Assembly (NCBI GenBank): GCA_029742005.1
Contig: GCA_029742005.1_4113.1
Source of the DNA: a phage
DNA: 64,000 nt
Direction: 5' to 3' (one strand)
In this document: piece by piece, positions 28,061 to 45,561 of the stretch
How positions within the stretch are numbered: the first letter of the stretch is position 1
Layout: every line of letters begins with the position of its first letter
Notes under the pieces: model-generated
Seen by the model: the letters and a program-made list of their open reading frames with translations, nothing else
What the model was told of the DNA's origin: nothing
Databases searched by the model: none
Made by a program: the position numbers and the translations under genes

Positions 28061-28816
28061 AAAATTTTATTTTGTTTTTTCCAATAGTTCCCCTACCGCG
28101 TGGGGATAGTTTCCCCGCAGTATCTGGAGTTAGATTTTTCTGAATCTGGAATCATTATCTTATAAACTGGGGGCAATGTCAACCGCCTGGACGGATATTT
28201 TTAAAAATTTTTTCAGTACTGAATTTTGGGCGTAACTATGCACCCGGTGGGCTATAGTCTTTCTCGACTTGATGGAACTATTATACAGTACTGAAAAAAT
28301 AAAGCAATACCCTGGAAGCAAAAAAGTTTTAATTAATTTGCTTGCCATCCTGGGCCGTACTATGGTACTATATTTCAGTACTGAGAAAGTGCGTTTACCT
28401 GCTAGGGTGCGGGAGTGTATCCTTTTTTTATATCTTGAATTTTGGGCGTAATTCCGCACCCTCTGGGGTTTCCGCTTTCTCGCGTCTATGTAGTAATTAT
28501 ACGCTTTTTCAGGATCAAGTCAATACCTAAAAACAAAATAATTGAAAATAATTTAACGCGTTTAAACGGCCCGTAACGCCCTGGAATGATTGGAATGGTG
28601 CAAATGTATAGCTTAGGTGTATTAATGCGTTAGAATGCGTCTGAGGCCGTTTTACGGGGTATGGGGATGATTTAGTGGATTGATTCAGTACTGAATGATA
28701 GTACTACTATATAGAAAGATAGTTCCCCTGGATGGTTGCAGTACTGAATGATAGTACTGAATAATAGTTCCCCTATATAGAAAGAAAACTATTTTAAAAG
28801 TATTTGTAGAAAGTAC

Positions 28817-28844
28817 TTGCAAACTATGTTTAACGGCGTATAAT
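28817..28844 (+). promoter_or_regulatory. promoter TTGCAA-16-TATAAT followed by 5' stem-loop at 28856-28877
   Basis: First PeSL-like unit of the 28.8-45.3 kb region. Confidence 0.6.
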
Positions 28845-28899
28845 GTTTTACATCGAGAGCGGGAACACTTCCCGCTACACTTTAAGAGAGATTAATACG

Positions 28900-29262
28900 A
28901 TGGCGACTCAAATCACTAAAATCATGCTTAACCTGGTAAACTTCCGCGATGAGATGAAAGGTCTTCCGGCTGAAACTGTAAAAATTCACATTGCAGCTTA
29001 TCGGGAACTTATTGCAATGTTGCCGCTTAAGCGTGAACAATACGCCGCTACTTTGATGCTTGATTCAATGATCCATATAATGATCTCAAATGATTTAACG
29101 ATGGTTTATCAGTATATGGGTGAATTGTTCGCGGTGTATAGTAAACCAGTACCAGGAATGGAAAGTACAGAAGTATTACACGGTTTAAATTTAAAACAAG
29201 ATGCATGGGATAATATGCCTCGTTTCCTGGTATGGGCTGACAGTGGCAAGATTTACGAATAA
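28900..29262 (+). CDS. hypothetical protein
   Basis: ATG after RBS and hairpin; track start 28843 lies in the promoter. Confidence 0.55.
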   Translation: MATQITKIMLNLVNFRDEMKGLPAETVKIHIAAYRELIAMLPLKREQYAATLMLDSMIHIMISNDLTMVYQYMGELFAVYSKPVPGMESTEVLHGLNLKQDAWDNMPRFLVWADSGKIYE

Positions 29263-29276
29263 GTTTTAGAAAGTAC

Positions 29277-29304
29277 TTGCAAACTAAGTTTAAAAGCGTA
29301 TAAT
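29277..29304 (+). promoter_or_regulatory. promoter TTGCAA-16-TATAAT followed by stem-loop GTGGGGAATAGTTCCCCAC
   Basis: Same architecture as 28817. Confidence 0.6.
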
Positions 29305-29355
29305 GTTTTACATCAGGTGGGGAATAGTTCCCCACTATATAAGAGGATTAAAAAA

Positions 29356-29595
29356 ATGGCTAAATCAAAAATGTTCTTGGGTCACAAAAACAAAACTCAT
29401 TGGAATGTAAGCCTTTGGATTAATAACGATGAGTCATTGTACCGGTTGGCCCAGGACTTTATTGCCGCCAATACTAATCGCAATGATGCGGCCCGTCATA
29501 TGATGTTATTTTTAGAACAGACTGGACAATATAAAACACCGGACGGATTCAAATATAGCACTACTGCGATCCGTGCGGCGATGGTTGGAATGTAA
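29356..29595 (+). CDS. hypothetical protein
   Basis: RBS AAGAGGA; MAKSKMF.. Confidence 0.55.
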   Translation: MAKSKMFLGHKNKTHWNVSLWINNDESLYRLAQDFIAANTNRNDAARHMMLFLEQTGQYKTPDGFKYSTTAIRAAMVGM

Positions 29596-29609
29596 TAGAA
29601 TTTATTTAA

Positions 29610-29643
29610 AGTACTATCGCAAAAAATGATAGTACTTTATAAT
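29610..29643 (+). promoter_or_regulatory. promoter with operator-like inverted repeat AGTACTATC-N9-GATAGTACT before TATAAT
   Basis: Perfect 9-bp arms; -10 at 29638-29643; weak -35. Confidence 0.45.
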
Positions 29644-29680
29644 AGTGTTTTATTCATACACCAACGATAAGGGCAACAGC

Positions 29681-29947
29681 ATGAATATTAAGTATTTTGC
29701 GACGCGTGAACAAGCTCGGATCGCCGCACGCCAGGACGGGGCAACGTTTAAAGATATGGGCGTACAATCGGAACGTGGTAAACGTTGGGCCATTATAAAG
29801 CGTAGTACCGCCAGATCATTACAGTACTGGCTATCTGCTTTAAAGCGTCCTGATAGTGTATCGCGTCGCGTGGTAGAAATAAAGCACGACCGCAAGGGCA
29901 ACCGCGTTACTGTGTACAGTACTAAAAAGATAGCAGTACTTGAATAA
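29681..29947 (+). CDS. hypothetical protein, KYFATREQAR family
   Basis: Paralog of 40678-41073 (shared ..FATREQARI.AR..G.TFKDMG.. and ..HDRKGNRVTVYS..). Confidence 0.55.
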   Translation: MNIKYFATREQARIAARQDGATFKDMGVQSERGKRWAIIKRSTARSLQYWLSALKRPDSVSRRVVEIKHDRKGNRVTVYSTKKIAVLE

Positions 29948-30131
29948 AAGTACTTGCATACTATGTTTAAAGGCGTATAATGTTTTACATCAGGACGGGG
30001 AACGAAATAAGTAACTTCCCGTTAAGTAGCCCAGGAGTAAGGCACACGAAAAACTCCCCTGATAAAATAGTTTGACAAATGTTTTTAAAAGCGTATAATA
30101 CTTACATCAACTACTGAATGAGGGTTACAAA
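29946..30131 (+). repeat. dual-promoter repeat unit, copy 1
   Basis: Near-identical to 39417-39601; promoters at 29954-29981 and 30072-30099. Confidence 0.6.
29988..30070 (+). ncRNA. candidate small RNA between tandem promoters
   Basis: Hairpin ACGGGGAA..CTTCCCCGT; no ATG-initiated ORF; conserved in second copy. Confidence 0.3.
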
Positions 30132-30743
30132 ATGAAAACTATCACTACTACTACTTTCGTTATGGCTTTTTCTGAATTGAACGCAGAACAACAAACGTCA
30201 GCTATCGAACTGGTTCGGGATCGGGAACGTTCAAGCGGTGATGATTTCTTTTCTGAGTCAGTGATCGAGTACTATAAAGAAACAGTACTACCAGAATATG
30301 GAATTGATGACGCTGATTTGCAATTCAGTGGTTTTTGGTCGCAGGGTGACGGTGCATCAATCAGTACTGACCACGTTGACGCAGTGAAGTTTTTACGCAA
30401 GATTAAAGCATTAACTAAGTATCGTTCTATCCGTCACCTGCTGAATGAAGATGATTTGGCGATGAGTGTAAAGCGTTCTCACTCCCACTACTCGCATGAA
30501 AACACTGTAAGCGGGTACATTGAATCGGGGTACACTGATTTAACCGCAAAACAAGAAACGTTAGTTAATGAGCTTGAGGAACTACTCACTGAAACTATTC
30601 GTGAATTATCCCGCAAGTTGTACCGTGATTTAGAGAATGCATATGAGGATCAATTCACTACTGAAAACATTACGGCACTGATTGAGGGTAACGAATATCA
30701 ATTCAATGTTATTGATGGCGTAGTAGAATCTATCGAATATTAA
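30132..30743 (+). CDS. hypothetical protein
   Basis: 203 aa after promoter 30072-30099. Confidence 0.6.
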   Translation: MKTITTTTFVMAFSELNAEQQTSAIELVRDRERSSGDDFFSESVIEYYKETVLPEYGIDDADLQFSGFWSQGDGASISTDHVDAVKFLRKIKALTKYRSIRHLLNEDDLAMSVKRSHSHYSHENTVSGYIESGYTDLTAKQETLVNELEELLTETIRELSRKLYRDLENAYEDQFTTENITALIEGNEYQFNVIDGVVESIEY

Positions 30744-30799
30744 TTCAGTACTGAATCAATGGCGGGAGTGGTTCCCGCCTATAACCAGGAGTAAGCATC

Positions 30800-31033
30800 A
30801 TGTTCGAACAAATTCAAACGACCACAAGCCGGAGCGGAACGAAAGTACATTACATCGCTGATACTGATAAAGGTGTACCCTATTGTGCTGTACACGTAAA
30901 TACTGACGGTGACTATTGGTTAACTGTATACGGGCGTTACTCGTTTGCTTTTAGTGCACATTGTAAGATCCTGGAAGTAGTGAAGCCTACCGGTAAGAAT
31001 ATCACGCCGGGAAAATGTTTTACTAAGCACTAA
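30800..31033 (+). CDS. hypothetical protein, family with 31955-32191
   Basis: RBS AGGAG; shares GVPYCAVHVNT..YW.TVYG.YSF and ..PTGKNIT. Confidence 0.55.
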   Translation: MFEQIQTTTSRSGTKVHYIADTDKGVPYCAVHVNTDGDYWLTVYGRYSFAFSAHCKILEVVKPTGKNITPGKCFTKH

Positions 31034-31119
31034 AAAGTACTTGCATACTAAGTTTAAAAGCGTATAATACTTTATATCGAGGCGGGGGAATGGTTCCCGC
31101 CTTTACTGAGGATTATCTA

Positions 31120-31407
31120 ATGAGCAAAGTAATTAACTATACAGTACTAAGCAAGTCATTATCTATTAGCCAGTGCACCGATGGTTTTTGGCTGTACGAT
31201 GAAACGCGTGGCATGAATTTAGCTATGCGGGAGAAAACTGCTGAGGCGGCGTATTTACAAGCCCTGGAATACTACCAGGAACGTTTAAAGGAAGTAGAAA
31301 ACAATTATCAAAATTTAAAAGAGAAAGTAGATAATTTCGTTGGTCAATTCGTTGACGATGACGAGGAAGACGGGCACTACTGCAACCGTTGCGGATCTTA
31401 CAATTAA
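31120..31407 (+). CDS. hypothetical protein with C-terminal CxxC
   Basis: Promoter + hairpin GGCGGGGGAATGGTTCCCGCC upstream; RBS GAGGA. Confidence 0.55.
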   Translation: MSKVINYTVLSKSLSISQCTDGFWLYDETRGMNLAMREKTAEAAYLQALEYYQERLKEVENNYQNLKEKVDNFVGQFVDDDEEDGHYCNRCGSYN

Positions 31408-31489
31408 GTACTTGCAATTAGTTTTCAGTACTGTATAATGGTTTACATCAAAGGGAGAAATGGTTCTCCCTGGTAATGAGGAAAATAAA

Positions 31490-31711
31490 ATGGCTAATAT
31501 CACTACTCTTTCCCAACTGGAAGCACTGGTTAAATCTATGCGGGAACATGCCGACAAAATCGGCGTACAAGATCCAGCCGTTTGCTTTTGCGACGAATTG
31601 AATGATGATACCCTGGTAATAGCAGAAGTCCAGGACGTTTCTAACTATTCCTCGCGTTACACTGGCGGCGTAGCAAATAAAGGTGACTTCTGTTTATACC
31701 TTACAAAATAA
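31490..31711 (+). CDS. hypothetical protein
   Basis: Promoter + hairpin GGGAGAAATGGTTCTCCC upstream; RBS GAGGAA. Confidence 0.55.
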   Translation: MANITTLSQLEALVKSMREHADKIGVQDPAVCFCDELNDDTLVIAEVQDVSNYSSRYTGGVANKGDFCLYLTK

Positions 31712-31714
31712 CAA

Positions 31715-31747
31715 CGCGGGGAGATAATAACTCCCCGTTACTTTTTC
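31715..31747 (+). terminator. rho-independent terminator
   Basis: CGCGGGGAG..CTCCCCGT hairpin + TTACTTTTTC. Confidence 0.6.
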
Positions 31748-31954
31748 AGTACTGAATCATTTAATAGACGGATCTATGCACCCGGTGGGTTAGTGACTGT
31801 TTCGTCTTGATGTAGTAATTATGCCAGTACTGGATGCACTTGTCAACAATTATTTTTCAAATACTTTTTATTAAAATACTTGCAATTAGTTTTTAAACGC
31901 GTATAATGTTTTGCATAGGGGGAGCGGTTCCCCTGGTAACTAAGGAATAATAAA

Positions 31955-32191
31955 ATGCTTGAACAAATCAAATCAACGTCTTCGAATGTAACGGGAACGG
32001 TAGCACACTTTACTAGTGATGAATCGCGGGGCGTTCCCTATTGTGCTGTACATGTAAACACTGAGGGTAACTACTGGTTTACGGTTTACGGTTCATATTC
32101 ATTTGGACGGCCAGGGCATCAAAAAATTCTGGATAAAGTACAGCCAACGGGTAAAAATATCACTGCTGAAATGTTTTATAAAAAATCATAA
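31955..32191 (+). CDS. hypothetical protein, paralog of 30800-31033
   Basis: Promoter + hairpin upstream; RBS TAAGGAA. Confidence 0.55.
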   Translation: MLEQIKSTSSNVTGTVAHFTSDESRGVPYCAVHVNTEGNYWFTVYGSYSFGRPGHQKILDKVQPTGKNITAEMFYKKS

Positions 32192-32275
32192 AGTACTTGC
32201 AATTAGTTTTTAGTACTGTATAATATTTTACATCGCAAGGGGGAGCGGTTCCCCCTGGTAACTAAGGATAATCAA

Positions 32276-32575
32276 ATGAAAATTGCAATCATCGCCCTGG
32301 CTTTATCTGTTTCCTCTTTCGCTGTTAATGCGTCATTAGATGTAAGTAGTGAAAAATTCATTCAGTGCACTGTTGCAATGACCGATGAAAGTACTGGCGA
32401 GATTGTTTTAAAGGATTTAGAGATCCAGCCGGAAGCATTTAAAAACGGGCCGTTCCATGAAGAAGACGAAAAAGGTAGCACGACAATTTATTACGATGCA
32501 AGTACTAAACGCGGTTCGGTCACTGTTATGGATACTGAGAAAGTAACTCATACTGGCGTTATTAATTGCCGTTGA
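32276..32575 (+). CDS. secreted protein with signal peptide
   Basis: MKIAIIALALSVSSFAVNA; promoter + hairpin upstream. Confidence 0.6.
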   Translation: MKIAIIALALSVSSFAVNASLDVSSEKFIQCTVAMTDESTGEIVLKDLEIQPEAFKNGPFHEEDEKGSTTIYYDASTKRGSVTVMDTEKVTHTGVINCR

Positions 32576-32596
32576 TAGATACTACGGGGTAACATC

Positions 32597-32827
32597 ATGA
32601 CTAAGCGAATTGTTTTACTTAACGAAAGCAGTACTACACAACTACTTAACGCCGTGCATTATGATATTGAAACGAGCGTTAATCTTATCAGTACTGTCGT
32701 ACTGTTGGACACTGGAAAGGTCGCCAATGATAAAGCGATTGCAGGTATACTAACGGATCTTGAGCCTGGTAGCAGTGCACCAATAACGTTAAATGGTAAA
32801 GTGTTTAACATTTTACTTACTGATTAA
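32597..32827 (+). CDS. hypothetical protein
   Basis: 76-aa ORF, terminator immediately downstream. Confidence 0.5.
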   Translation: MTKRIVLLNESSTTQLLNAVHYDIETSVNLISTVVLLDTGKVANDKAIAGILTDLEPGSSAPITLNGKVFNILLTD

Positions 32828-32833
32828 GTACAT

Positions 32834-32856
32834 AGCCCACCCGGTGGGCTTTTTTG
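32834..32856 (+). terminator. rho-independent terminator AGCCCACC-CGGTGGGCT + T-run
   Basis: Perfect stem + TTTTTTG. Confidence 0.7.
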
Positions 32857-33059
32857 TTTTTGTAGTATCGTAGTACTGAGATACTTTGAAAATAGTTTTA
32901 AAAAATAGTTGACATTACCGCAGAAAAGCGTAGAATGTATTACATCAAGACGGGGAGCACTAAGTAGACCGCCAGTAAGTCGAACGAAAAACTGGACACG
33001 TCGAGAAAACTTTGATACACTAATAAACGTAAACTAAACTTTAATTGAGGATTTATAAA

Positions 33060-33542
33060 ATGGCTAATGTAAAATCATTCATCAAAGCACTGGTAGCAAA
33101 TGAAACTAACGTCGCGGCAGAGATCCTGGCTGATCTGGATAACGATACCATGAAAGCGGTACGCAATAATTTTAACATCGCTTATAGTACTGCGAAAGAA
33201 CTACAAGCAAATAAAGCGGCAGAAATTGAAGCGGCAAAGGCGGCCCGTGAAGCAGAACTACAAGCAACAATTGAAAGTATCCAGGCGGCAGTAGTTGGAT
33301 TGGATCTGGAAGTAGTTACAGAGATGGCACAAAAAGCCCTGGCGGTTAAGTATGGGGAAGATAAGCCGGAATCTAAGCCTAAAAAATGGATTCAAAAACG
33401 TGTAGCGGTAGTACTGGACAACGGGGAAGAATATCTGATTCCGGTGCGTGGTAACTGCATTGCGGTAGTACTGGATGCGATTAACTCCAGTGGTATGACT
33501 CGCGAGGAATGGATCGAAGCTCATCGCAAAGTGGAAGCATAA
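33060..33542 (+). CDS. hypothetical Ala-rich protein
   Basis: RBS GAGGA; long 5' UTR after promoter TTGACA..TAGAAT near 32909. Confidence 0.55.
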   Translation: MANVKSFIKALVANETNVAAEILADLDNDTMKAVRNNFNIAYSTAKELQANKAAEIEAAKAAREAELQATIESIQAAVVGLDLEVVTEMAQKALAVKYGEDKPESKPKKWIQKRVAVVLDNGEEYLIPVRGNCIAVVLDAINSSGMTREEWIEAHRKVEA

Positions 33543-33563
33543 CAATTAAAGTACTGAATCACT

Positions 33564-33590
33564 AGCCCACCTTAAACGGTGGGCTTTTTT
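33564..33590 (+). terminator. rho-independent terminator AGCCCACC-TTAAAC-GGTGGGCT + T-run
   Basis: Stem + TTTTTTG. Confidence 0.7.
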
Positions 33591-33609
33591 GTGTTTATCG
33601 TTTACCAGG

Positions 33610-33679
33610 CCACCAGCACCGCCTAGAAACGATTCTAACGCATTAAACTGATTATCTGATGCATTGCCCTAGCTGGTGG
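33610..33679 (+). repeat. inverted Chi octamers separated by about 55 nt
   Basis: CCACCAGC at 33610-33617 and GCTGGTGG at 33672-33679. Confidence 0.5.
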
Positions 33680-33827
33680 CGTTAAGGCTGTAAGAACGCG
33701 ATTGAGAGCGTTTAAAGTATTTTGCAAAAAGTAATAAAAAGTACTTGCACGATTAAGAGATTAGCGTATAATGTTTTACATCGAGAGGGGGAAACGGTTC
33801 TCCTTCCAAATCAAAGGAATTAAAACA

Positions 33828-39416: not shown

Positions 39417-39601
39417 AAAAAGTACTTGCAAAGTATCACGATAAGCGTATAATGTTTTACATCAGGACGGGGAACGAAACAAGTAACTCCCCGTTAAGTA
39501 GTCCAGGAGTAAGACATACGAAAACCTCCCCTGATAAAATAGTTTGACAATAGAAATTAAACGAGTATAATACTTACATCAACCACAAAGAGGAATACAA
39601 A
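39417..39601 (+). repeat. dual-promoter repeat unit, copy 2
   Basis: Near-identical to 29946-30131. Confidence 0.6.
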
Positions 39602-39802: not shown

Positions 39803-39891
39803 TAAAATAGTTTGACAATAGTTTTTAGTACTGTATAATAGTTTACATCAAGTGGGGAATAGTTCCCCACCTAACAAAGAGAGAAATTAAA

Positions 39892-40167
39892 ATGCGGATT
39901 CTACTGACAGCTAACGAAATCGAGCAAGTACTGACTACTAACCTGGAAGACTGGAAACGTGATGCAGATATCCAGGCGGTTCAATGCCTTAACGATAAGT
40001 TAACGCCAGATGACTTAAGCACGATTGTTGATCCACAATTTTATGAAGATATTCACGACATGGATTTAAGCGTAGAGGATGTACTTGATAAGCACTACAT
40101 TGATACTGATTTACAGGTTTACGGTCGTAAAAACTTTATCACTATTCACGACATTTACAATACTTAA
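39892..40167 (+). CDS. hypothetical acidic protein
   Basis: Promoter + hairpin GTGGGGAATAGTTCCCCAC upstream. Confidence 0.55.
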   Translation: MRILLTANEIEQVLTTNLEDWKRDADIQAVQCLNDKLTPDDLSTIVDPQFYEDIHDMDLSVEDVLDKHYIDTDLQVYGRKNFITIHDIYNT

Positions 40168-40254
40168 GTATTGACAAAGTATCTTAGTACTGTATAATAG
40201 TTTACATCAAGTGAGGGGAATGGTTCCCCTCCTAACAAAAAGAGAGAAATTAAA

Positions 40255-40578
40255 ATGGCTATGATCCTTACCCAGAAAGTAGAAATGAAAATTGTAACTT
40301 CCTTTGACATTAAAGTTAATCGGTGGACTGATAGCCACGGCAATACTTACCACTCATGCTACGTGTCTGCATTGATTGGTGACCGCTGGGAAGACCTGGG
40401 ACATGAAACCTTTACTTACGGTTACGGTACACAAGGCGAATACACGGGCTTGGAGATCATTAAAGAAACTGTAATAGGTTTCAACCCGAAAGAGAAAGTA
40501 CTACACAGAATTGAGGATGAGATCAACAAAGAAATTACAGTTCGTTACTACGATGTAAAACGTAAGAAAGACATGTAA
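40255..40578 (+). CDS. hypothetical protein, paralog of 34367-34711
   Basis: Promoter + hairpin upstream; C-terminus VKRKKDM. Confidence 0.55.
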   Translation: MAMILTQKVEMKIVTSFDIKVNRWTDSHGNTYHSCYVSALIGDRWEDLGHETFTYGYGTQGEYTGLEIIKETVIGFNPKEKVLHRIEDEINKEITVRYYDVKRKKDM

Positions 40579-40592
40579 TAGAATCCATTTAA

Positions 40593-40629
40593 AGTACTAT
40601 TTGACATTACCCAGATAGTACTTTATAAT
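40593..40629 (+). promoter_or_regulatory. promoter TTGACA-17-TATAAT bracketed by IR AGTACTAT/ATAGTACT
   Basis: -35 40601-40606; -10 40624-40629. Confidence 0.6.
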
Positions 40630-40677
40630 AGACTCTAACTTGTAGTACTAATTAACTTAACTAATAGGATGTACACC

Positions 40678-41073
40678 ATGATTACTAAATTCTTCGCTAC
40701 CCGTGAACAAGCTCGCATCGTTGCCCGTGAAGAAGGTGAAACATTTAAAGACATGGGCAAAGATGCACCGAAAGGACAACGCTGGGCGGTACAGTTCAAA
40801 GAGATCTCTGATATTGTGAATTCACCTGAACCAGTACTTACTGAAGCAGAACTAAAGCAAGCTCAAGAACTGGCTGAAGTACTGAACGCTCAAGATGACT
40901 TCTTGGAAGGTTCTGATATTCAAGTACAAGTGAATAGTAATGCATGGACTCACGCGGATCACCTGGCAAACCTTAAGCGTCCAAGTGAACTGATTCGTAA
41001 CCAGAAAGAGATCCGTCATGACCGTAAAGGAAACCGTGTAACAGTATACAGTAAACGCCGCCAGGTTATCTAA
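40678..41073 (+). CDS. hypothetical protein, KFFATREQAR family
   Basis: Paralog of 29681-29947. Confidence 0.55.
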   Translation: MITKFFATREQARIVAREEGETFKDMGKDAPKGQRWAVQFKEISDIVNSPEPVLTEAELKQAQELAEVLNAQDDFLEGSDIQVQVNSNAWTHADHLANLKRPSELIRNQKEIRHDRKGNRVTVYSKRRQVI

Positions 41074-41095
41074 TAACTTGCAGTACTAACAACAC

Positions 41096-41120
41096 GGCGG
41101 GTTCAGTTCCCGCCTTTTTT
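41096..41120 (+). terminator. rho-independent terminator
   Basis: GGCGGG-TTCAGTT-CCCGCC + TTTTTT. Confidence 0.7.
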
Positions 41121-41135
41121 ATAGGATAAACTAAA

Positions 41136-41390
41136 ATGATGAAGGTACAACTATCTAAAGATAATATCTTGCGGGTACACTATAAAGCACCACAGAGAAT
41201 CATCACAAAGGCCGTACAGCTTGCTAATGAGTTTATTAATGGTAGTCTATTACCCAGGAAGTTAAGCAACGGAAAACTACGTGTTATCGATGTAGACACT
41301 AACAATAGAATAGTAATTGAGAGTACTGGAAAAATTAATCTATATGAACACCAACAATACAATAAAAAAATAAAACTAATATCACGTTGA
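41136..41390 (+). CDS. hypothetical protein
   Basis: RBS TAGGATAAA. Confidence 0.5.
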   Translation: MMKVQLSKDNILRVHYKAPQRIITKAVQLANEFINGSLLPRKLSNGKLRVIDVDTNNRIVIESTGKINLYEHQQYNKKIKLISR

Positions 41391-41446
41391 CAGTACTCAA
41401 TTGTTTTAGTATTATGTATCTATACCAACACAGAGAGAGAAACAAA

Positions 41447-41665
41447 ATGAAATTATCTAAAATCGAAAAGAAAACTATTGATGAAGCAGTGAAGCACGGT
41501 TATACCTTTCGTAATGATTCACATTTTACCAATTTTCAACAAGGGTATCGTACTATTAAAAAACTAATTGACAAAGGTTTATTAGTTGAAGTCAATAACG
41601 GCAATGGCATTGAGTATCAACCAACACAAGACGCATTATCACTAAAGAAATATTCTATTATCTAA
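41447..41665 (+). CDS. hypothetical protein
   Basis: Promoter TTGACAGTACTCAATTGTTTTAG-TATTAT upstream. Confidence 0.5.
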   Translation: MKLSKIEKKTIDEAVKHGYTFRNDSHFTNFQQGYRTIKKLIDKGLLVEVNNGNGIEYQPTQDALSLKKYSII

Positions 41666-41722
41666 TTGACAGTACTCAAATGTTTTAGTACTATGTACGC
41701 ATACCAACACGGGGAAAACAAA

Positions 41723-41950
41723 ATGATTACTTTAGAAAAACGTATCAAAGAGACTACAACGCTGGTGGAACTGTTAACCGTTCTTAAATGCCGGGTAACT
41801 CCATTCAGTACACCGGACTTTATCAACATGGTGGACGTTAACGGTCGATATCGTATTGCGGTCGAACAAGGTACGGCAAAAGTATTCAGTACTAAAAATA
41901 CGCGTGAAGTATTCCACGCAGTTCAAGTAAAAAAAAGTAGTTGCCATTGA
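41723..41950 (+). CDS. hypothetical protein
   Basis: Near-identical duplicated promoter upstream. Confidence 0.5.
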   Translation: MITLEKRIKETTTLVELLTVLKCRVTPFSTPDFINMVDVNGRYRIAVEQGTAKVFSTKNTREVFHAVQVKKSSCH

Positions 41951-41997
41951 TAGTAAAGTACTGTAATATAGTTTCATTAACTCAAGGAGTCAACACA

Positions 41998-42582
41998 ATG
42001 CGTAACTATACTAAATTCATCCGTTCACTTCATGCAATGGAAACCAACAAAGAGATCCTTTCAGCTTGTCGGTTAGCTGGACTGGAGATCGTCGGTGCGG
42101 GTTCTTCCCGTATTGTATTCGCTTTAAATGATCGGTTAGTGATTAAGGTCGCGAATTGTGATGCGGGTGTAGAACAAAATGAAACTGAATGTAAGGTATG
42201 GAATTTTTTAGATTATGACCGTCCGCACCTTAAACAGTTCTTTGCCAAGGTGCATATGCATTTATGCGATCCTGATAATCTGTTTATTGTTATGGATCGT
42301 TTGAGTACTGCAAGCAAAGGCAGTGTAAAGCATGTAAACGCGTGCAATGAGTTAAAGTACAATATTAAACGTAATACGGTAGAACGCCAACACCATTTCG
42401 CTGATGCTCTCAATCACGTTGATGATACATTATCCACACTAACGATAAGAGATATCAGAAAACAGAATATCGGCCAGGATCGCAACGGCTTGATTAAAGT
42501 ACTTGATTACGGTTTAACCCGCAATATCTGGAATCAGTACTATAAAAAACGTGATGTTAACGCGATAACTATAACACGATAA
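41998..42582 (+). CDS. protein kinase-like protein
   Basis: GAGSSRIVF (Gly loop), VIKVA (Lys), IRDIRKQN (catalytic loop), KVLDYG (DFG-like); RBS AAGGAG. Confidence 0.5.
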   Translation: MRNYTKFIRSLHAMETNKEILSACRLAGLEIVGAGSSRIVFALNDRLVIKVANCDAGVEQNETECKVWNFLDYDRPHLKQFFAKVHMHLCDPDNLFIVMDRLSTASKGSVKHVNACNELKYNIKRNTVERQHHFADALNHVDDTLSTLTIRDIRKQNIGQDRNGLIKVLDYGLTRNIWNQYYKKRDVNAITITR

Positions 42583-42596
42583 AAAAGATTAAAAAA

Positions 42597-42629
42597 GGGA
42601 TTGACTCCAGTCAGTCCCTTTGCTATTAT
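42597..42629 (+). terminator. terminator-promoter composite
   Basis: GGGATTGACTCCAGTCAGTCCC hairpin; TTGACT-17-TATTAT. Confidence 0.6.
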
Positions 42630-42803
42630 ATATTCATTGAGAGATAACTCACTGACCCATAGGGTGCGGAAGTGTATCTATTATATAAGTATTCAGTACT
42701 GAAAACTATTTGATAAAAAGTACTTGCAAACTATCTCAAAGAGCGTATAATGTTTTATATCGAGAGGGGGAAATGGTTTCCCCTCAAGTCCAGGAGATAC
42801 ACC

Positions 42804-43067
42804 ATGAACACTATCGAAATCACTATCAATGCACACGTATACGACAACGTAGTACTGCAAACTACTATGACCGCTAACGATACCAGTACTTTGCGGAATA
42901 CTGTTATTAGTGCTGTATGTGCCGCTATCGGTGATGTCGCCCTGGAAAATGCAAAACACGTAAACGATGGTTTCACTATGTGCAAACGTGATAACGCAAA
43001 ACATATCATCGTAGAAGGTTACGGCGGTGTAGAATATAATGTTTATATGAAAAAAGTACTTGCATAG
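42804..43067 (+). CDS. hypothetical protein
   Basis: Promoter + hairpin GAGAGGGGGAAATGGTTTCCCCTC upstream. Confidence 0.55.
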   Translation: MNTIEITINAHVYDNVVLQTTMTANDTSTLRNTVISAVCAAIGDVALENAKHVNDGFTMCKRDNAKHIIVEGYGGVEYNVYMKKVLA

Positions 43068-43134
43068 TACTGAATAAAGCGTATAATGTTTTGCATAGGG
43101 GGAGATATCCTCCCCCACTAAAAGGAGTATTAAA

Positions 43135-43359
43135 ATGGCTAACTTTGATGAACTGATGCGGGAAGTAGCTAACCTGGCAGAAGAGAAGAAATCATTCGAT
43201 TCTATCTATAACACCGCTCACCGTGATTCAGTACTGGCATGTAACCAGGATCAAAAAGATGAACTAATCGCCACATATCATGAAGCATGGAAGTACTACC
43301 GACAATGGGAGAAAGAAGAAAGCGAGTCTACCATCGAAGGTATCAATAATCTAATCTAA
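43135..43359 (+). CDS. hypothetical protein
   Basis: Promoter + hairpin upstream; RBS AAGGAG. Confidence 0.55.
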   Translation: MANFDELMREVANLAEEKKSFDSIYNTAHRDSVLACNQDQKDELIATYHEAWKYYRQWEKEESESTIEGINNLI

Positions 43360-43370
43360 AAGTTTTATTT

Positions 43371-43407
43371 CAGTACTATTGACATAGCTTGATAGTACTG
43401 ATATGAT
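43371..43407 (+). promoter_or_regulatory. promoter TTGACA-17-TATGAT bracketed by IR CAGTACTAT/ATAGTACTG
   Basis: -35 43379-43384; -10 43402-43407. Confidence 0.55.
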
Positions 43408-43434
43408 AACTTTACTAACTAAAGGGGAAACATA

Positions 43435-43692
43435 ATGGAACAGTTCACACAATATCGGGTAAATCCTCAAGCGATGGCCTACGTAGAAGACCATAAAACG
43501 TTACCAGTACTGCAACCAGTTAAAGGCCATATCTATCGTGCAATGTCGTGGAGTGCGGCCCAGGATGGATATAAAACCGTCGCCGTGGGGATGTATTGCG
43601 GGAATGGTGAATGGTTTGATCCTAACAATCCGATTGCACTTGACAGTACTGAAAAAATGAAATGGGCCGACTACATCGAAGATATTTCATAA
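43435..43692 (+). CDS. hypothetical protein
   Basis: RBS AAAGGGGAAA. Confidence 0.55.
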   Translation: MEQFTQYRVNPQAMAYVEDHKTLPVLQPVKGHIYRAMSWSAAQDGYKTVAVGMYCGNGEWFDPNNPIALDSTEKMKWADYIEDIS

Positions 43693-43782
43693 AAACTATT
43701 TGACAGTACTAACCAGTAATGTATAATGTTTTACATAGAGCGGGGGAATAGTTCTCCCGCCAATAGTTTGGAGTAAAACATT

Positions 43783-43983
43783 ATGTCTATCGCTATCGCC
43801 CTGGTTGAAGTACTGAAAGAAGCTAAAGCCAACCTTATCGATGTACAGATTAAGGAATTGCAAAACGGCTTAATCGGCTGTACTTGTACCGCTGGTGGAG
43901 CGGCAGACTATCGAGAACACGAATCACTCGAATCACTGGTTCGGTATCTTACCATGATCGTTGATGATTGGAGAATCATCTAA
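43783..43983 (+). CDS. hypothetical protein
   Basis: Promoter + hairpin GCGGGGGAATAGTTCTCCCGC upstream. Confidence 0.55.
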   Translation: MSIAIALVEVLKEAKANLIDVQIKELQNGLIGCTCTAGGAADYREHESLESLVRYLTMIVDDWRII

Positions 43984-44000
43984 CAAAAAAGAATAAAAAA

Positions 44001-44033
44001 GGGATTGACTCCGGTCAGTCCCTTTGCTATTAT
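44001..44033 (+). terminator. terminator-promoter composite
   Basis: GGGATTGACTCCGGTCAGTCCC hairpin; TTGACT-17-TATTAT. Confidence 0.6.
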
Positions 44034-44228
44034 ATACGCATAGACAAAAACTAGCCCACTGGGTGCATAAGTGTATCCAAAATATATAGTTAATAACGGT
44101 GAGTAACTATCTGCTGGTGGAGTGAAAACTATTAATAAAAAAAGTATTGACAAAGTATATCAGTACTGCGATAATGTATCTCGTAGGGCGGCAATGGTGC
44201 GACGGCCCACAAAGTTAGGAGATTCAAA

Positions 44229-44561
44229 ATGACTACTTCAATCGCTATCGTTAAAGCTTTCATCCGTACTAATGTTTCCTCTGTATTCATCGACGGCCTC
44301 GACCGTAACGTAGAATACTCAATCATTATCGCACAAACGGCAAACGGTTCTCGGTACATCCTGAATGATAGTGAAGCAAATCACTACTACTTCACTAAAG
44401 CCACTGGCTTTAAACGCATCGATGCTGATGTAGTATACGCTAAGATGAATAAGCTGGTAGATAAGATTAACGCTAAAGGTACTATAGATTTACAGTACTG
44501 GACCGAAACCGATCCAGAATATGGATCTCACCGCTACCTGAATCCAGGTATTAAAATGTAA
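44229..44561 (+). CDS. hypothetical protein
   Basis: RBS TAGGAGA. Confidence 0.55.
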   Translation: MTTSIAIVKAFIRTNVSSVFIDGLDRNVEYSIIIAQTANGSRYILNDSEANHYYFTKATGFKRIDADVVYAKMNKLVDKINAKGTIDLQYWTETDPEYGSHRYLNPGIKM

Positions 44562-44650
44562 AAAGTACTTGCATAGTACTTAGATTCATGTATAATGTTT
44601 TACATAGAGAGGGGGAAATGGTTCTCCCTCCTAAATTAAGGAGTTTTATC

Positions 44651-45052
44651 ATGACCTTCTCAATCACTTCCTTCGCTGACGTTTTAGTACTGGCTCGGAC
44701 TTTTGGTAAAGATGCACTGGAGTACGCTGTAAGTAATGGCACTATCCAACCGGAACAGTGCCGCATCATTGGAAACTGCAAACGTTGGGCGGTATCCAAT
44801 ACTATTGCACTGGAAAACTTCAACGATGGCAACAATGAATATTCTGTTGATGCAGTATTCGAAGCCGTAGACCTGGGCGGTATCTATAACACTAACCTGA
44901 ATGATGTGCGTATCGTTCGCACTGGCTTCGGTGCTTATGATGTATCTATCCGTGAAGCTATGGACAAGGGATACATTAGCAAGGACCAGTTAGCTTACAT
45001 CATGCAGCAAACTAAGGAGCGTAACGAAGCCCGTACTATCTTAGGGTTGTAA
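44651..45052 (+). CDS. hypothetical protein
   Basis: Promoter + hairpin GAGAGGGGGAAATGGTTCTCCCTC upstream; RBS AAGGAG. Confidence 0.55.
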   Translation: MTFSITSFADVLVLARTFGKDALEYAVSNGTIQPEQCRIIGNCKRWAVSNTIALENFNDGNNEYSVDAVFEAVDLGGIYNTNLNDVRIVRTGFGAYDVSIREAMDKGYISKDQLAYIMQQTKERNEARTILGL

Positions 45053-45120
45053 GCGTTACACATCACCAAACATCATAGGCCGCCTTGTAGCGGCCTTAAC
45101 TATATCAGGAGTACATACAC

Positions 45121-45330
45121 ATGATCTATACAGTATATAGCGTTCTAGGTACTATTGCAGGCGTACACGATAACGTCGATAGTGCTATGCGTACAGTACT
45201 GCAACAGGTTCCACTAAAGCCTAAGACCATTAAGCAGATGACAGCACGATTAACCAGGGCGACGGCTGGCGTGGAAGTATGGCAGGACTATGGGGATACA
45301 CAGATAATCGTAAGCGTAACGAAGGATTAA
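45121..45330 (+). CDS. hypothetical protein
   Basis: RBS TCAGGAG. Confidence 0.5.
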   Translation: MIYTVYSVLGTIAGVHDNVDSAMRTVLQQVPLKPKTIKQMTARLTRATAGVEVWQDYGDTQIIVSVTKD

Positions 45331-45561
45331 TGCGTAAAAGGATTTAGTACTGAATCAAAAAAAAGTCAAGGCATTTTTTTCATGCGTCGAAAAAAAACTT
45401 AACCAGTACACTATCACGCATGAAATAATTTTGACCAGTGATTATATCTCTTGCCCTAAAGGGCGGGTAATGTCTTAGCGAGCATATTGGAGTTCTTGGG
45501 TAGGACAAAATTATTTCTTGTGCTATAATTATATCGAATGTAATCATAGAAAGGAGTCCCT

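What the first reader, a model, noticed from the sequence alone, without database searches (positions are those of the whole stretch)
28800..45350. About 47 small genes each behind its own promoter plus 5' stem-loop (PeSL-like cassettes)
Nearly every gene here is preceded by the same unit: -35 (TTGCAA or TTGACA), 16-17 nt spacer often ending AGTACTG, TATAAT, the start region ..TTTACATC.., a GC-rich perfect hairpin (GGGGAGAAATGGTTCTCCCC and variants), a Shine-Dalgarno and ATG. The hairpin translates as a spurious N-terminal extension (MFYIERGK.., MVLPGNE..) in the six-frame track, so the real starts lie downstream. This matches the promoter-early stem-loop cassettes described in T4-type phages, where repeated regulatory modules are proposed to drive modular shuffling of ORFans.
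Basis: partly seen in the sequence, partly recalled or inferred. Interest (0 to 1): 0.6.

Follow-up and report, generated by a model that had tools for sequence, protein, structure and literature searches.

The report
Early-gene promoter–hairpin cassettes in terminal repeat
The long terminal repeat of a 350-kb E. coli "jumbo" phage is packed with 47 tiny genes, most with their own strong host-type promoter and many with a conserved RNA hairpin, and these repeated control units mark where genes have been swapped between related and even unrelated phages.

Summary
Window 28800-45350 holds 47 small + strand genes. 33 have their own sigma70-like promoter and 21 have the full unit: -35, 16 nt, TATAAT, TTTACAT, a 7-10 bp G/C hairpin, SD and ATG. 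The window is an Asteriusvirus jumbo coliphage (121Q/phAPEC6/G17 group). The array coincides with that genus's ~20-kb direct terminal repeat, here 27142 to about 45482. Strong promoter matches number 32 on + versus 5 on -, against 4.6 in shuffles. The hairpin keeps its structure through compensatory and G·U changes and folds better on the sense strand, so it most likely acts as RNA. It lies downstream of the predicted transcription start and has no T-run. In true PeSLs (checked in RB49) the stem-loop sits inside the promoter. Ten other units here do have that PeSL topology. Homology-block ends against five relatives fall in the units (26 of 43, versus 23% expected). rV5-like phages carry a homologous array in shuffled order. 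Verdict: a PeSL-like early-gene cassette system in a non-T4 lineage, a new variant of a known kind. What the hairpin does is unresolved.

The parts
27142..45482 (+). Equivalent of the Asteriusvirus direct terminal repeat (DTR). It has a non-coding head (27142-28816) followed by the 47-gene array.
   Evidence: Position 1 of vB_Ec-M-J (DTR annotated 1-21525) and of fEgEco12 (termini verified experimentally, DTR 20,993 bp, PMC13070987) aligns to window 27142. The DTR ends project to about 45480-45482. The G17 record also starts there.
28817..28899 (+). Class A unit (promoter + 5'UTR hairpin + SD) for gene 28900-29262
29277..29355 (+). Class A unit for gene 29356-29595
31041..31119 (+). Class A unit for gene 31120-31407
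31412..31489 (+). Class A unit for gene 31490-31711
31880..31954 (+). Class A unit for gene 31955-32191
32197..32275 (+). Class A unit for gene 32276-32575
33745..33827 (+). Class A unit for gene 33828-34055
34064..34141 (+). Class A unit for gene 34142-34285
35591..35669 (+). Class A unit for gene 35670-35816
35820..35897 (+). Class A unit for gene 35898-36050
36412..36490 (+). Class A unit for gene 36491-36832
36847..36927 (+). Class A unit for gene 36928-37140
37942..38016 (+). Class A unit (17-nt spacer, TATAGT) for gene 38017-38205
38563..38639 (+). Class A unit for gene 38640-38852
39812..39891 (+). Class A unit for gene 39892-40167. In relatives the same gene sits behind a hairpin-less unit.
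40171..40254 (+). Class A unit for gene 40255-40578. In vB_Ec-M-J this unit is duplicated around an extra gene.
42724..42803 (+). Class A unit for gene 42804-43067. A 1.3-kb insertion in relatives is flanked by copies of this unit.
43060..43134 (+). Class A unit for gene 43135-43359
43700..43782 (+). Class A unit for gene 43783-43983
44147..44228 (+). Variant class A unit (GATAAT; weaker, different hairpin GGGCGGCAATGGTGCGACGGCCC) for gene 44229-44561
   Evidence: z = 0.2; not found by model R1
44569..44650 (+). Class A unit for gene 44651-45052
34298..34366 (+). Class B unit. The inverted repeat CAGTACTAT..ATAGTACTG encloses the -35 and spacer (PeSL topology). -10 is CATAAT and there is no UTR hairpin. 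Serves gene 34367-34711.
37152..37231 (+). Class B unit for gene 37232-37375
   Evidence: recurrent breakpoint at 37138-37200
43372..43434 (+). Class B unit for gene 43435-43692
29606..29680 (+). Class C unit. An 11-bp inverted repeat AAAGTACTATC..GATAGTACTTT runs up to the -10 TATAAT. Serves gene 29681-29947.
40594..40677 (+). Class C unit (TTGACA-17-TATAAT inside the inverted repeat) for gene 40678-41073, a paralogue of 29681-29947
34717..34791 (+). Class S unit: TTTACT-17-TATAGT with a stem-loop (ATGCAGA..TCTGCAT) over the spacer and -10. Serves gene 34792-35061.
41387..41446 (+). Class D promoter (TTGACAGTACT..TATTAT), no hairpin, for gene 41447-41665
41666..41722 (+). Class D promoter (TTGACAGTACT..TACTAT) for gene 41723-41950
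30072..30131 (+). Hairpin-less consensus promoter unit for gene 30132-30743
39544..39601 (+). Hairpin-less consensus promoter unit for gene 39602-39802
41943..41997 (+). Weaker promoter (TTGCCA-17-TAATAT) for the kinase-like gene 41998-42582
   Evidence: sequence read; weak Pfam kinase match
36283..36411 (+). Class E module: a terminator hairpin whose stem contains the -35 TTGACT, then -10 TATTAT, then a conserved ~90-nt ORF-less transcript
39290..39425 (+). Class E module
42594..42723 (+). Class E module
43998..44146 (+). Class E module
29954..30071 (+). Class R: a class-A-type promoter driving an ORF-less structured RNA of about 85 nt, closed by ATCAGG/CCTGAT. It abuts the next promoter.
39426..39543 (+). 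Class R, second copy
32909..33059 (+). Class R-related promoter (TTGACA-16-TAGAAT) with a 120-nt structured leader for gene 33060-33542
30761..30779 (+). Half unit: hairpin GGCGGGAGTGGTTCCCGCC plus SD, no promoter, before gene 30800-31033
   Evidence: sequence read
45077..45096 (+). Half unit: hairpin AGGCCGCC..GGCGGCCT plus SD, no promoter, before the last DTR gene 45121-45330
31716..31738 (+). Intrinsic terminator after gene 31490-31711
32834..32850 (+). Intrinsic terminator after gene 32597-32827
33564..33585 (+). Intrinsic terminator after gene 33060-33542
41096..41114 (+). Intrinsic terminator with a class-A-like stem (GGCGGG..CCCGCC plus T6), placed before the SD of gene 41136-41390

Best explanation
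Window 28800-45350 is the gene array of the roughly 18-kb direct terminal repeat of an Asteriusvirus jumbo coliphage. It is built from about 39 repeated expression units on one strand.

Each unit most likely works as follows. Host sigma70 RNA polymerase recognises a near-consensus promoter: an A-rich upstream stretch, TTGCAA or TTGACA, 16-17 nt, then TATAAT. Transcription starts in the conserved TTTACAT. This yields short, mostly one- to four-gene early transcripts for small proteins of unknown function, presumably host take-over or anti-defence factors.

In 21 units the first ~30 nt of the transcript fold into a 7-10 bp G/C hairpin. The hairpin leaves the A-rich SD region free. I infer that it acts as RNA, as a generic, gene-independent stabiliser and insulator. 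In that reading it gives a structured 5' end to its own message. It would also act as a 3' barrier or processing boundary for read-through from the previous cassette. I do not think it is an intrinsic terminator.

Because the ~80-nt units are 75-95% alike and repeat every ~350 nt, they also act as portable homology. Recombination between units inserts, deletes and swaps whole gene cassettes, which produces the mosaic seen among relatives and in rV5-like phages.

Shown here: the anatomy, non-randomness, structural conservation, strand bias, position in the DTR, and breakpoint coincidence. Inferred: early timing, sigma70 dependence, the transcription start, the hairpin's biochemical role, and recombination (rather than selection) as the cause of the breakpoint pattern.
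For: Identity and position in the DTR. DTRs of ~20-21 kb were determined experimentally for fEgEco12 and Sharanji (PMC13070987, PMC11895373).

Promoters: 32 strong sites on + versus 5 on -, against 4.6 +/- 2.1 in shuffles. The distance from -35 to ATG clusters at 75-84 nt or 56-62 nt.

Hairpin anatomy: dG is -11 to -16 kcal/mol. The stem starts 5-8 nt after the A of ACAT (a few folds extend it to 0-3) and mostly ends 16-23 nt before the ATG, leaving the SD unpaired.

Hairpin conservation: model R1 finds 146 matches in the window plus five relatives, all on + and all inside the DTR equivalents. 89.8% of cells are paired, and 49 cells show changes on both sides (0 of 500 shuffles reach this).

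Strand bias: the sense strand folds better than the antisense in 61 of 80 distinct hairpins, with 49 G·U pairs (p = 3e-7).

Generic, not gene-specific: gene 39892 has the hairpin unit here but a hairpin-less unit in Ec-M-J and G17. Hairpin+SD 'half units' also occur without a promoter (30761, 45077).

Cassette shuffling: 26 of 43 distinct homology-block ends lie in units that cover 23% of the region (p = 2e-7), and only about 5 lie deep inside genes. An extra gene in Ec-M-J is flanked by two 95%-identical units where the window has one. Each unit shares a 14-36 nt exact match with another unit.

Cross-family sharing: the rV5-like phage A7_1 has the same unit design and at least 9 homologous genes (67-88% nucleotide identity) in a different order.

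Context: a related jumbo phage, PA5oct, uses host RNA polymerase with TTGAC/TATAATA promoters at its transcription starts and expresses ncRNAs from its DTR (PMC7318152).
Against: There are no transcript data for this phage group, so promoter use, timing and the transcription start are all predictions.

The 5'-stabiliser reading is weak if the start is the A of ACAT or CAT. That would leave about 3-8 unpaired nucleotides 5' of the stem. RNase E readily bypasses a simple orthogonal stem-loop while scanning from the 5' end (PMC9943677). By my recollection, 5' hairpins protect only when within ~2-4 nt of the end (Emory, Bouvet & Belasco 1992).

Twelve genes do without the hairpin, so it is dispensable.

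Breakpoints in intergenic units are also what purifying selection against broken genes would leave. BLAST blocks also extend into repeated units by construction.

The covariation signal is inflated by orthologous copies and by G-run/C-run low complexity. Versions of the structure slid by -1 or -2 columns still pair 83-87% of cells.
Confidence: 0.6

Rival explanations
1. These are true PeSLs. The hairpin's job is to terminate or attenuate transcription arriving from the upstream cassette, so that each gene is driven only by its own promoter, as proposed for RB49/phi1.
For: The stems have the same G-run/loop/C-run composition as RB49 PeSL stems. In RB49 a stem-loop without an obvious T-run reduced downstream lacZ as strongly as rrnB T1 (PMC2839356). 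Only about 8-9 canonical terminators serve 47 genes and about 36 promoters, so some attenuation of read-through seems necessary. Ten units (classes B, C, S, E) have the PeSL topology, and class E fits an intrinsic terminator.
Against: In class A the hairpin lies downstream of the unit's own predicted start, so it would attenuate its own transcript equally. No T-run follows it; the next bases are ACTAA, TGGTAA or CCTAAC. The terminator scan does not pick up any class A hairpin.
Confidence: 0.2
2. The hairpin is a specific RNA recognition element for a phage or host protein. Candidates are a translational repressor, a RegB-like nuclease that shuts off early messages, or an antitermination or processivity factor. 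It would give all early transcripts one common switch.
For: The structure is conserved at the RNA level, and the core is GGGGA(G/A)...(T/C)TCCCC. The hairpin sits at a fixed position relative to the start and the SD. The same design is kept in rV5-like phages. The stem contains GGAG, which I recall is the target of T4 RegB.
Against: Loop sequence and length vary (AUGG, AUAG, CAC, GCGG, ACAUC, AUAUC), and so do the outer stem pairs. That argues against sequence-specific recognition. Orthologous genes work with or without the hairpin. No candidate binding protein was identified, and only a DksA/TraR zinc finger is recognisable in the array.
Confidence: 0.12
3. The inverted repeat works as DNA. 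It could be a palindromic operator for a dimeric repressor placed at +8 to +28 (a roadblock for early shut-off), or a cruciform or recombination hotspot.
For: The sequences are perfect palindrome-like repeats at a fixed distance from the promoter. [quoted passage not shown] Breakpoints cluster in the units.
Against: There are 49 G·U (G·T) pairs, and the sense strand is more stable in 61 of 80 hairpins. Double-stranded DNA recognition would not produce that asymmetry. The half-sites covary rather than being conserved. The stems are short for cruciform extrusion.
Confidence: 0.06
4. The pattern is not functional. It reflects chance promoter-like matches in AT-rich DNA plus recently duplicated intergenic sequence.
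For: AT-rich phage DNA gives many weak sigma70-like matches: 80 found versus 61 expected at the loose threshold.
Against: At the strict threshold there are 32 sites versus 4.6 expected. All are on the coding strand and at fixed distances from ATGs. The units are conserved across at least 40 Asteriusvirus records and in another phage subfamily.
Confidence: 0.02

Closest known systems
PeSLs (promoter-early stem-loops) of T4-type phages RB49/phi1, PST/T4, nt-1/KVP40 (Arbiol et al. 2010, PMC2839356; Comeau et al. 2014, PMC4122927)
   Same: Both are repeated ~60-100 nt intergenic units. Each has an A/T-rich upstream stretch, a near-consensus sigma70 promoter, a G-run/C-run stem-loop, and an SD and ATG. 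Both are concentrated in hyper-variable regions full of small genes of unknown function. In both, insertions, deletions and replacements between close relatives end in the units, and degraded 'half' units occur. Ten units here (classes B, C, S, E) even have the stem-loop inside the promoter, as in RB49.
   Different: The host phage is an Asteriusvirus jumbo phage, not Straboviridae. In the dominant class (21 units) the stem-loop is transcribed from its own promoter as a 5'-UTR hairpin at a fixed position, with no T-run. The proposed PeSL function, terminating upstream transcription, therefore does not transfer directly. The array coincides with the direct terminal repeat. Mini-circles have not been tested.
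Pre-early (first-step-transfer) gene region in the terminal repeat of phage T5 (own knowledge, not checked here)
   Same: Both are blocks of small host-take-over genes that lie inside a long direct terminal repeat. Both read inward from the genome end and are driven by very strong sigma70 promoters with A-rich upstream regions.
   Different: T5's repeat is ~10 kb with far fewer promoters and no repeated promoter-hairpin cassette that I know of. Two-step DNA injection has not been shown for Asteriusvirus.
5'-UTR stem-loops that stabilise or insulate mRNAs: the E. coli ompA 5' hairpin and the phage T7 phi10 leader GGGAGACCACAACGGUUUCCC (own knowledge)
   Same: The layout is the same: a G/C hairpin at or near the 5' end, ~20 nt of A/U-rich single strand, then SD and AUG. 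One unit here (GGGGAAACGGTTTCCCC, 36443-36459) even resembles the T7 stem.
   Different: In those cases the hairpin starts at or within ~2-4 nt of the 5' end. Here the predicted tail is about 3-8 nt. RNase E can bypass simple stem-loops when scanning (PMC9943677).
Early-gene array of rV5-like phages (Vequintavirinae, e.g. Escherichia phage A7_1, OP795442)
   Same: It is a homologous system. The design is the same (TTGACA-17-TAAGAT/TAAATT/TATAAT, CACATCAGG, a G/C hairpin, an A-rich SD). At least 9 genes share 67-88% nucleotide identity with window genes, and the R RNA and the class B promoter are also present.
   Different: The gene order differs and the -10 variants differ. AGTACT is not enriched there (0.9x). 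The rV5 genome paper lists 33 sigma70 promoters but does not describe the hairpin or the cassette structure (PMC3606486).

Membership tests
PeSL (promoter-early stem-loop) | Near-consensus sigma70-type promoter with an A/T-rich upstream stretch | tested here: met
   TTGACA or TTGCAA, 16-17 nt, TATAAT, preceded by runs such as AAAAAGTAC. 32 strong + strand sites versus 4.6 expected.
PeSL (promoter-early stem-loop) | Stable G/C stem-loop as part of the same short intergenic motif | tested here: met
   Stems of 7-10 bp with dG of -11 to -16 kcal/mol. Structure is conserved in 146 copies.
PeSL (promoter-early stem-loop) | Stem-loop placed upstream of or within the promoter (upstream A/T region, over the -35, between -35 and -10, over the -10, or just before the start), so that it is met only by upstream transcription | tested here: not met
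   Not met for the 21 class A units, where the stem begins about 12-15 nt after the -10, that is after the predicted start. Met for 10 other units in classes B, C, S and E. The RB49 reference was checked.
PeSL (promoter-early stem-loop) | Stem-loop acts as a transcription terminator or attenuator | not testable with these tools
   By sequence alone, class A hairpins have no T-run and are not picked up by the terminator scan. Class E hairpins are picked up. A functional assay is needed.
PeSL (promoter-early stem-loop) | Concentrated in hyperplastic regions with small genes of unknown function | tested here: met
   The best relative covers only 70% of the region, in 14 pieces. Of the 10 genes scanned (mostly the largest), 8 have no known function.
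PeSL (promoter-early stem-loop) | Insertion, deletion and replacement end-points between close relatives coincide with the motifs | tested here: met
   26 of 43 block ends fall in units versus 23% expected, p = 2e-7.
PeSL (promoter-early stem-loop) | Found in T4-type phages (Straboviridae); excised mini-circles detectable | tested here: not met
   The host phage is an Asteriusvirus. Mini-circles cannot be tested in silico.
T5-type pre-early region in a terminal repeat | Gene block lies inside a long direct terminal repeat at the physical genome end | tested here: met
   Shown by homology to records with determined termini. Window 27142 corresponds to position 1 and about 45482 to the DTR end (PMC13070987). 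The window's own termini were not measured.
T5-type pre-early region in a terminal repeat | Expressed first, from host-polymerase promoters, before the rest of the genome enters or is transcribed | not testable with these tools
   Only promoter predictions are available. No time-course data were found.
5'-terminal stabilising stem-loop (ompA type) | Hairpin begins within ~2-4 nt of the transcript's 5' end | tested here: inconclusive
   The predicted unpaired tail is 5-8 nt from the first A of ACAT, or 3-6 nt from the second A. The true start is unknown.
5'-terminal stabilising stem-loop (ompA type) | Removing the hairpin shortens mRNA half-life in an RNase E/RppH-dependent way | not testable with these tools
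   This needs an experiment.

The most novel reading that the evidence does not exclude
The promoter, 5' hairpin and SD unit may be a shared 'expression socket' used by at least two unrelated lineages of large virulent coliphages: Asteriusvirus jumbo phages and rV5-like Vequintavirinae. Under this reading, early host-take-over or anti-defence genes move between phage families as ready-to-express cassettes, through homologous recombination at the units during co-infection. The RNA hairpin would be a specific mark that lets early transcripts be stabilised and later shut off together. In Asteriusvirus the sockets are additionally tied to a genome-wide AGTACT palindrome system placed at fixed promoter positions, suggesting an unknown DNA-binding regulator.
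Probability: 0.2. Interest if true: 0.7.

Novelty: new variant of a known kind. Interest (0 to 1): 0.5.

Why it matters
Jumbo phages of this group are being isolated for therapy, yet more than 80% of their genes have no known function and their transcription has not been mapped.

This analysis gives a concrete, testable map of the ~20-kb terminal repeat. It proposes about 39 transcription units, their likely starts, and the boundaries of the exchangeable cassettes.

It extends the PeSL idea, in which repeated regulatory motifs guide modular gene shuffling, beyond T4-type phages. It also shows a variant in which the stem-loop has moved into the transcript.

The shared array in rV5-like phages points to a common pool of early genes exchanged across phage families. 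That pool is where anti-defence and host-shut-off functions are most likely to be found.

The units are also compact natural promoter/5'UTR parts of graded design: with a UTR hairpin, without one, or with an embedded terminator.

Tried and rejected
Rfam: a permissive scan of 26000-47000 found no family for the hairpin, the R element or the E module. The two hits had E > 0.4 and were chance.

Consensus folding: RNAalifold on a plain MAFFT alignment of the units recovered only 5 pairs, because stems of different length were out of register. I replaced it with a covariance-model alignment and per-sequence folding. The model alignment still mis-registers the outer pairs, so I discounted its 'AC' cells.

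IMG/VR scan: an exact scan with TATAATGTTTTACATC gave 72 loci. Nearly all were single hits in unrelated contigs. Only a few >300-kb contigs, including the 121Q-length one (348,532 bp), had two or more hits. This was uninformative and I did not pursue it.

Literature: searches for promoters, hairpins or transcript maps in Asteriusvirus found nothing. The rV5 paper lists promoters only.

Intrinsic-terminator reading of class A hairpins: rejected on sequence grounds, because there is no T-run.

Loop AUG as a real start: I rejected the idea that the ATG in the hairpin loop or in TATAATG is a true start codon. It has no properly spaced SD, it lies inside the stem-loop or the -10 box, and the true starts have a strong SD 7-9 nt upstream.

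Simple '5' hairpin blocks RNase E' story: downgraded after reading PMC9943677.

Full report
**What the window is.**
A megablast of 28800-45350 against GenBank phages hits 172 records. Almost all are Escherichia jumbo phages of 350-385 kb (121Q, PBECO4, phAPEC6, G17, slurp01, JP4 and others; genus Asteriusvirus). No record covers more than 70% of the query. Matches are 90-95% identical but broken into 8-14 pieces. The region is therefore conserved in kind but mosaic in content.

In vB_Ec-M-J, bases 1-21525 are annotated as direct terminal repeats. Position 1 of that record aligns to window 27142, and so does position 1 of fEgEco12. [quoted passage not shown] The DTR ends project to window ~45480-45482, where the G17 record also begins. 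Sharanji has a 20,668-bp DTR (PMC11895373).

The finding's region is therefore the gene array of the DTR equivalent (27142 to about 45482). To its left lie a 1.7-kb non-coding head and then minus-strand genes from the other end of the genome. To its right, from 45562, the genes become tightly overlapping (ATGA junctions), with a single promoter-like site in front of the first gene and none between genes.

**Check of the observation.**
Reading the sequence and a regular-expression catalogue confirm the unit. It consists of an A-rich run, -35 TTGCAA/TTGCAT/TTGACA, 16 nt, TATAAT, (G/A)NTTTACAT(C/G/A), a perfect G/C hairpin, an A-rich stretch with GAGGA/AAGGA/AGGAG, and then ATG.

Gene calling by SD and start codon gives 47 genes. 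I added four short coupled genes (32597, 36047, 36137, 37678) and removed one false call at 29980.

Of the 47 genes:
- 21 have the full class A unit.
- 12 have another kind of promoter: classes B, C, D, S and P, plus the R-type leader of gene 33060.
- 4 have a hairpin and SD only.
- About 10 are translationally coupled.

Seven more promoter units drive no ORF directly (3 R and 4 E modules).

Strict sigma70 matches (at least 10 of 12) number 32 on + and 5 on -, against 4.6 +/- 2.1 in dinucleotide shuffles. The distance from the -35 to the next ATG clusters at 75-84 nt with the hairpin and 56-62 nt without it.

The 'spurious N-terminal extensions' are real ORF-list artefacts. They start at the ATG created by TATAAT+G or at the ATG in the hairpin loop.

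**The hairpin.**
I folded each 5' UTR from the presumed start. This gives a single 7-10 bp stem with dG of -9 to -16 kcal/mol and a mean z of -2.2 against shuffles. The stem begins 5-8 nt after the first A of ACAT in most units. It mostly ends 16-23 nt before the ATG, with the SD unpaired. UTR lengths are 42-51 nt.

A covariance model built on 20 units finds 22 matches in the window. All are on + and all lie between 28839 and 44591. It finds 146 matches in the window plus five relatives, all on + and all inside the DTR equivalents.

On that alignment 89.8% of cells pair. 5 of 8 pairs show changes on both sides, in 49 cells (0 of 500 shuffles reach this). The covariation score is 0.294 against 0.210 in shuffles. 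Versions slid by -1 or -2 columns still pair 83-87% of cells, because of the G- and C-runs.

Independently, the sense strand folds more stably than the antisense in 61 of 80 distinct hairpins (mean -12.9 versus -11.7 kcal/mol, p = 3e-7). The folds contain 49 G·U pairs. This points to selection on the + strand RNA rather than on a DNA palindrome.

No T-run follows the stem, and the terminator scan does not pick up any class A hairpin. It does find 8 canonical + strand terminators (31716, 32834, 33564, 41096 and the four class E hairpins). No Rfam family matches.

**Other unit types.**
- Classes B and C. Class B (34298, 37152, 43372) and class C (29606, 40594) have 9-11 bp AGTACT-containing inverted repeats that enclose the -35 and the spacer.
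- Class S (34717) has a stem-loop over the spacer and the -10.
- Class E (36283, 39290, 42594, 43998). This is a 12-bp terminator hairpin whose stem carries the -35 TTGACT and whose T-rich tail runs into the -10 TATTAT. Similar composite terminator-promoters occur outside the DTR, near 1460, 6102 and 6685.

These ten units have exactly the PeSL topology.

**Comparison with PeSLs.**
PeSLs are defined as sigma70-like early promoters combined with a stem-loop that works as a terminator or attenuator for upstream transcription. Five sub-classes are described: stem-loop upstream of the -35, over the -35, between the boxes, over the -10, or just before the start (PMC2839356, PMC4122927).

I extracted 16 RB49 intergenic regions (ORFs 185-228). 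The stem GGGGATC..GATCCCC lies between TTGACA and TATAAT, or over the -10, in nearly all of them.

The class A units here share the parts list but not the arrangement. Their stem-loop has moved about 15 nt further downstream, into the transcript.

**Cassette shuffling.**
I chained high-identity blocks between the window and five relatives: Ec-M-J, G17, JP4, WPEC3 and phAPEC6. This gives 43 distinct block ends within 28800-45350.
- 26 ends lie in units, which cover 23% of the region (binomial p = 2e-7).
- 7 ends lie at gene edges or in other intergenic DNA.
- 10 ends are nominally inside genes, but about half of those are within 10 nt of a start or stop codon.

Many consecutive blocks overlap in window coordinates by exactly one unit: 29272-29351, 29946-29991, 37138-37200, 40165-40261 and 42714-42782. 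This is the signature of one unit here against two units flanking extra DNA in the relative.

Two examples were aligned:
- Gene 39602 plus the following unit is absent from Ec-M-J and G17. There, gene 39892 sits directly behind the hairpin-less promoter unit.
- Ec-M-J has an extra gene (gp036) between two 95%-identical copies of the unit that is single at 40171.

Each unit shares a 14-36 nt exact match with some other unit. Selection for intact genes would also favour intergenic end-points, so recombination at the units is inferred rather than proven.

**Beyond Asteriusvirus.**
A single 95-nt unit finds 10-32 copies per Asteriusvirus record. It also finds weaker copies in the related jumbo phages Munch, 7t3 and fENko-Kae01 (in the last, inside an annotated DTR). 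It further hits ~145-kb rV5-like phages.

In Escherichia phage A7_1 (Vequintavirinae) a 12-kb array of small + strand genes has ~80-90 nt spacers of the same design: TTGACA, 17 nt, TAAGAT/TAAATT/TATAAT, CACATCAGG, a G/C hairpin, and an A-rich SD. At least 9 of its genes are 67-88% identical in nucleotide sequence to window DTR genes, but in a different order. It also carries the R element and a class B promoter.

The rV5 genome paper lists 33 sigma70 promoters but no hairpin or cassette structure. No paper in the library describes promoters or hairpins for Asteriusvirus.

In the related jumbo phage PA5oct, RNA-seq showed reliance on host RNA polymerase. It also showed TTGAC/TATAATA promoters at transcription starts and two abundant ncRNAs in the DTR.

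**Gene content.**
Of the ten genes scanned (mostly the largest), only the DksA/TraR zinc-finger protein (37678-37935) passes a Pfam threshold. Gene 41998-42582 is weakly kinase-like. The rest fall in PHROGs of unknown function. The array contains internal paralogues, for example 34367 and 40255.

**How it most likely works.**

*Shown.* The region is a one-strand array of repeated expression units with near-consensus host-type promoters. It lies in the DTR. It carries a structurally conserved, strand-biased RNA hairpin at a fixed place in 21 leaders. Cassette boundaries fall at the units.

*Inferred.* I infer immediate-early transcription by host sigma70 polymerase (probability ~0.85). I also infer unit-mediated homologous recombination as the motor of the mosaic (~0.65).

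*Hairpin role.* I favour a generic RNA-level stabiliser and insulator (~0.4). It would give its own message a structured 5' end and keep the SD region free. It could also serve as a 3' barrier or processing boundary for read-through from the previous cassette. Hairpin+SD half-units without a promoter fit an intercistronic role.

*Against a pure 5'-end protection model.* The predicted 3-8 nt single-stranded tail argues against it. So does the report that RNase E bypasses simple stem-loops while scanning (PMC9943677).

*Rivals.* These are a PeSL-type attenuator (0.2), a specific protein-binding RNA switch (0.12) and a DNA-level palindrome (0.06).

**Verdict.**
This is a PeSL-like regulatory-cassette system. 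It occurs in a different phage lineage, has a different dominant architecture (hairpin in the 5' UTR), coincides with the direct terminal repeat, and is shared with rV5-like phages. I rate it a new variant of a known kind, with interest 0.5.

Noticed in passing
whole window; e.g. 27062, 27122, 27480, 27697, 28213, 28375, 28685, 30745, 31746: The palindrome AGTACT occurs 269 times against 21.6 expected (12x). CAGTACTG is 91x enriched and TCAGTACTGA 200x. In 28800-45350 there are 12.1 copies per kb in non-coding DNA and 4.2 per kb in coding DNA. The coding count is 51 against 11.2 +/- 3.2 after synonymous-codon shuffling. In promoters it sits at fixed positions: -27 from the -10 start (13 cases, overlapping the -35) and -7 or -8 (12 cases). 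All six Asteriusvirus DTR loci fetched show 15-22x enrichment. The rV5-like locus shows 0.9x, and four of its seven copies lie in the cassette units it shares with the window. RB49 has 0 copies in 35 kb against 11 expected. This suggests a lineage-specific DNA-binding or modification system.
   Followed up: partly
window 45483-60000: AGTACT density collapses right of the DTR: 1.5 per kb at 45.5-52 kb and only 2 copies (0.8x) at 52-60 kb. It returns to 6 per kb at 60-64 kb. GC is also lowest here (31%). These blocks may be of different origin or under a different constraint.
   Followed up: no
window 27142-28816: The first 1.7 kb of the DTR equivalent has no convincing genes. It contains an 8-bp periodic array ((A/G)GA(C/T)GGCT and variants, about 27928-28055), seven TCAGTACTGA palindromes, and short direct repeats (TAGTTCCCCT(G/A)..ATAGAAAG at 28687-28785). 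It could serve in packaging or terminus recognition, as an origin, or in injection control.
   Followed up: partly
window 29954-30071, 39426-39543, 32909-33059: Three promoter units drive ORF-less structured RNAs of ~85-120 nt. They share the motif TAAGTAG.CC..AGTAAG.C..ACGAAAAAC and a closing stem ATCAGG/CCTGAT, with one compensatory change. Two of them abut a second promoter for the next gene. A copy is present in rV5-like phage A7_1 (81-89% identity). There is no Rfam match.
   Followed up: partly
window 36320-36411, 39327-39425, 42631-42723, 44035-44146: Downstream of each class E terminator-promoter lies a conserved ORF-less segment with a 7-bp hairpin (GGGTGCATAAGTGTATC). Each one precedes a class A or class R unit. 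It may be a small RNA or a boundary module that splits the DTR into ~1.4-3.3 kb segments.
   Followed up: partly
window 1460-1500, 6102-6140, 6685-6725: Composite terminator-promoters of the same design as class E lie outside the DTR. The sequence is GGGTTGACTTCGGTCAGCCC, a T-run, then TATAAT/TATGAT, in front of + strand genes. A class-A-like unit also lies at 4190-4255.
   Followed up: partly
window 45562 to about 50600: Immediately after the DTR boundary comes a tandem array of ~65-70-aa genes with overlapping stop/start (ATGA) junctions. Their N-termini are alike (MRILTEEEH.., MKMRILNKEDY..). There is one promoter-like site in front (AGGACA-16-TATAAT with TG, 45502). Relatives annotate 20 or more such genes. 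The organisation contrasts sharply with the cassette array.
   Followed up: no
L007 (Escherichia phage A7_1, OP795442) 9786-21448: This rV5-like (Vequintavirinae) phage carries a homologous early-gene array with the same promoter, hairpin and SD design. At least 9 of its genes are shared with the window at 67-88% nucleotide identity, in shuffled order. That implies cassette exchange between phage families.
   Followed up: partly
window 29681-29947 / 40678-41073; 30800-31033 / 31955-32191; 34367-34711 / 40255-40578: The array contains paralogous gene pairs with similar N-termini. The pair 34367/40255 falls in the same PHROG (6246). This fits duplication of whole cassettes.
   Followed up: no
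L003 (Escherichia phage JP4, PQ330092) 2153-3647 versus 22297-23761: In the JP4 record the sequence after the DTR array returns to the DTR head. Genes of the same sizes appear in the same order. The deposited record therefore seems to carry two DTR copies in tandem in mid-record, probably an assembly or permutation artefact.
   Followed up: no
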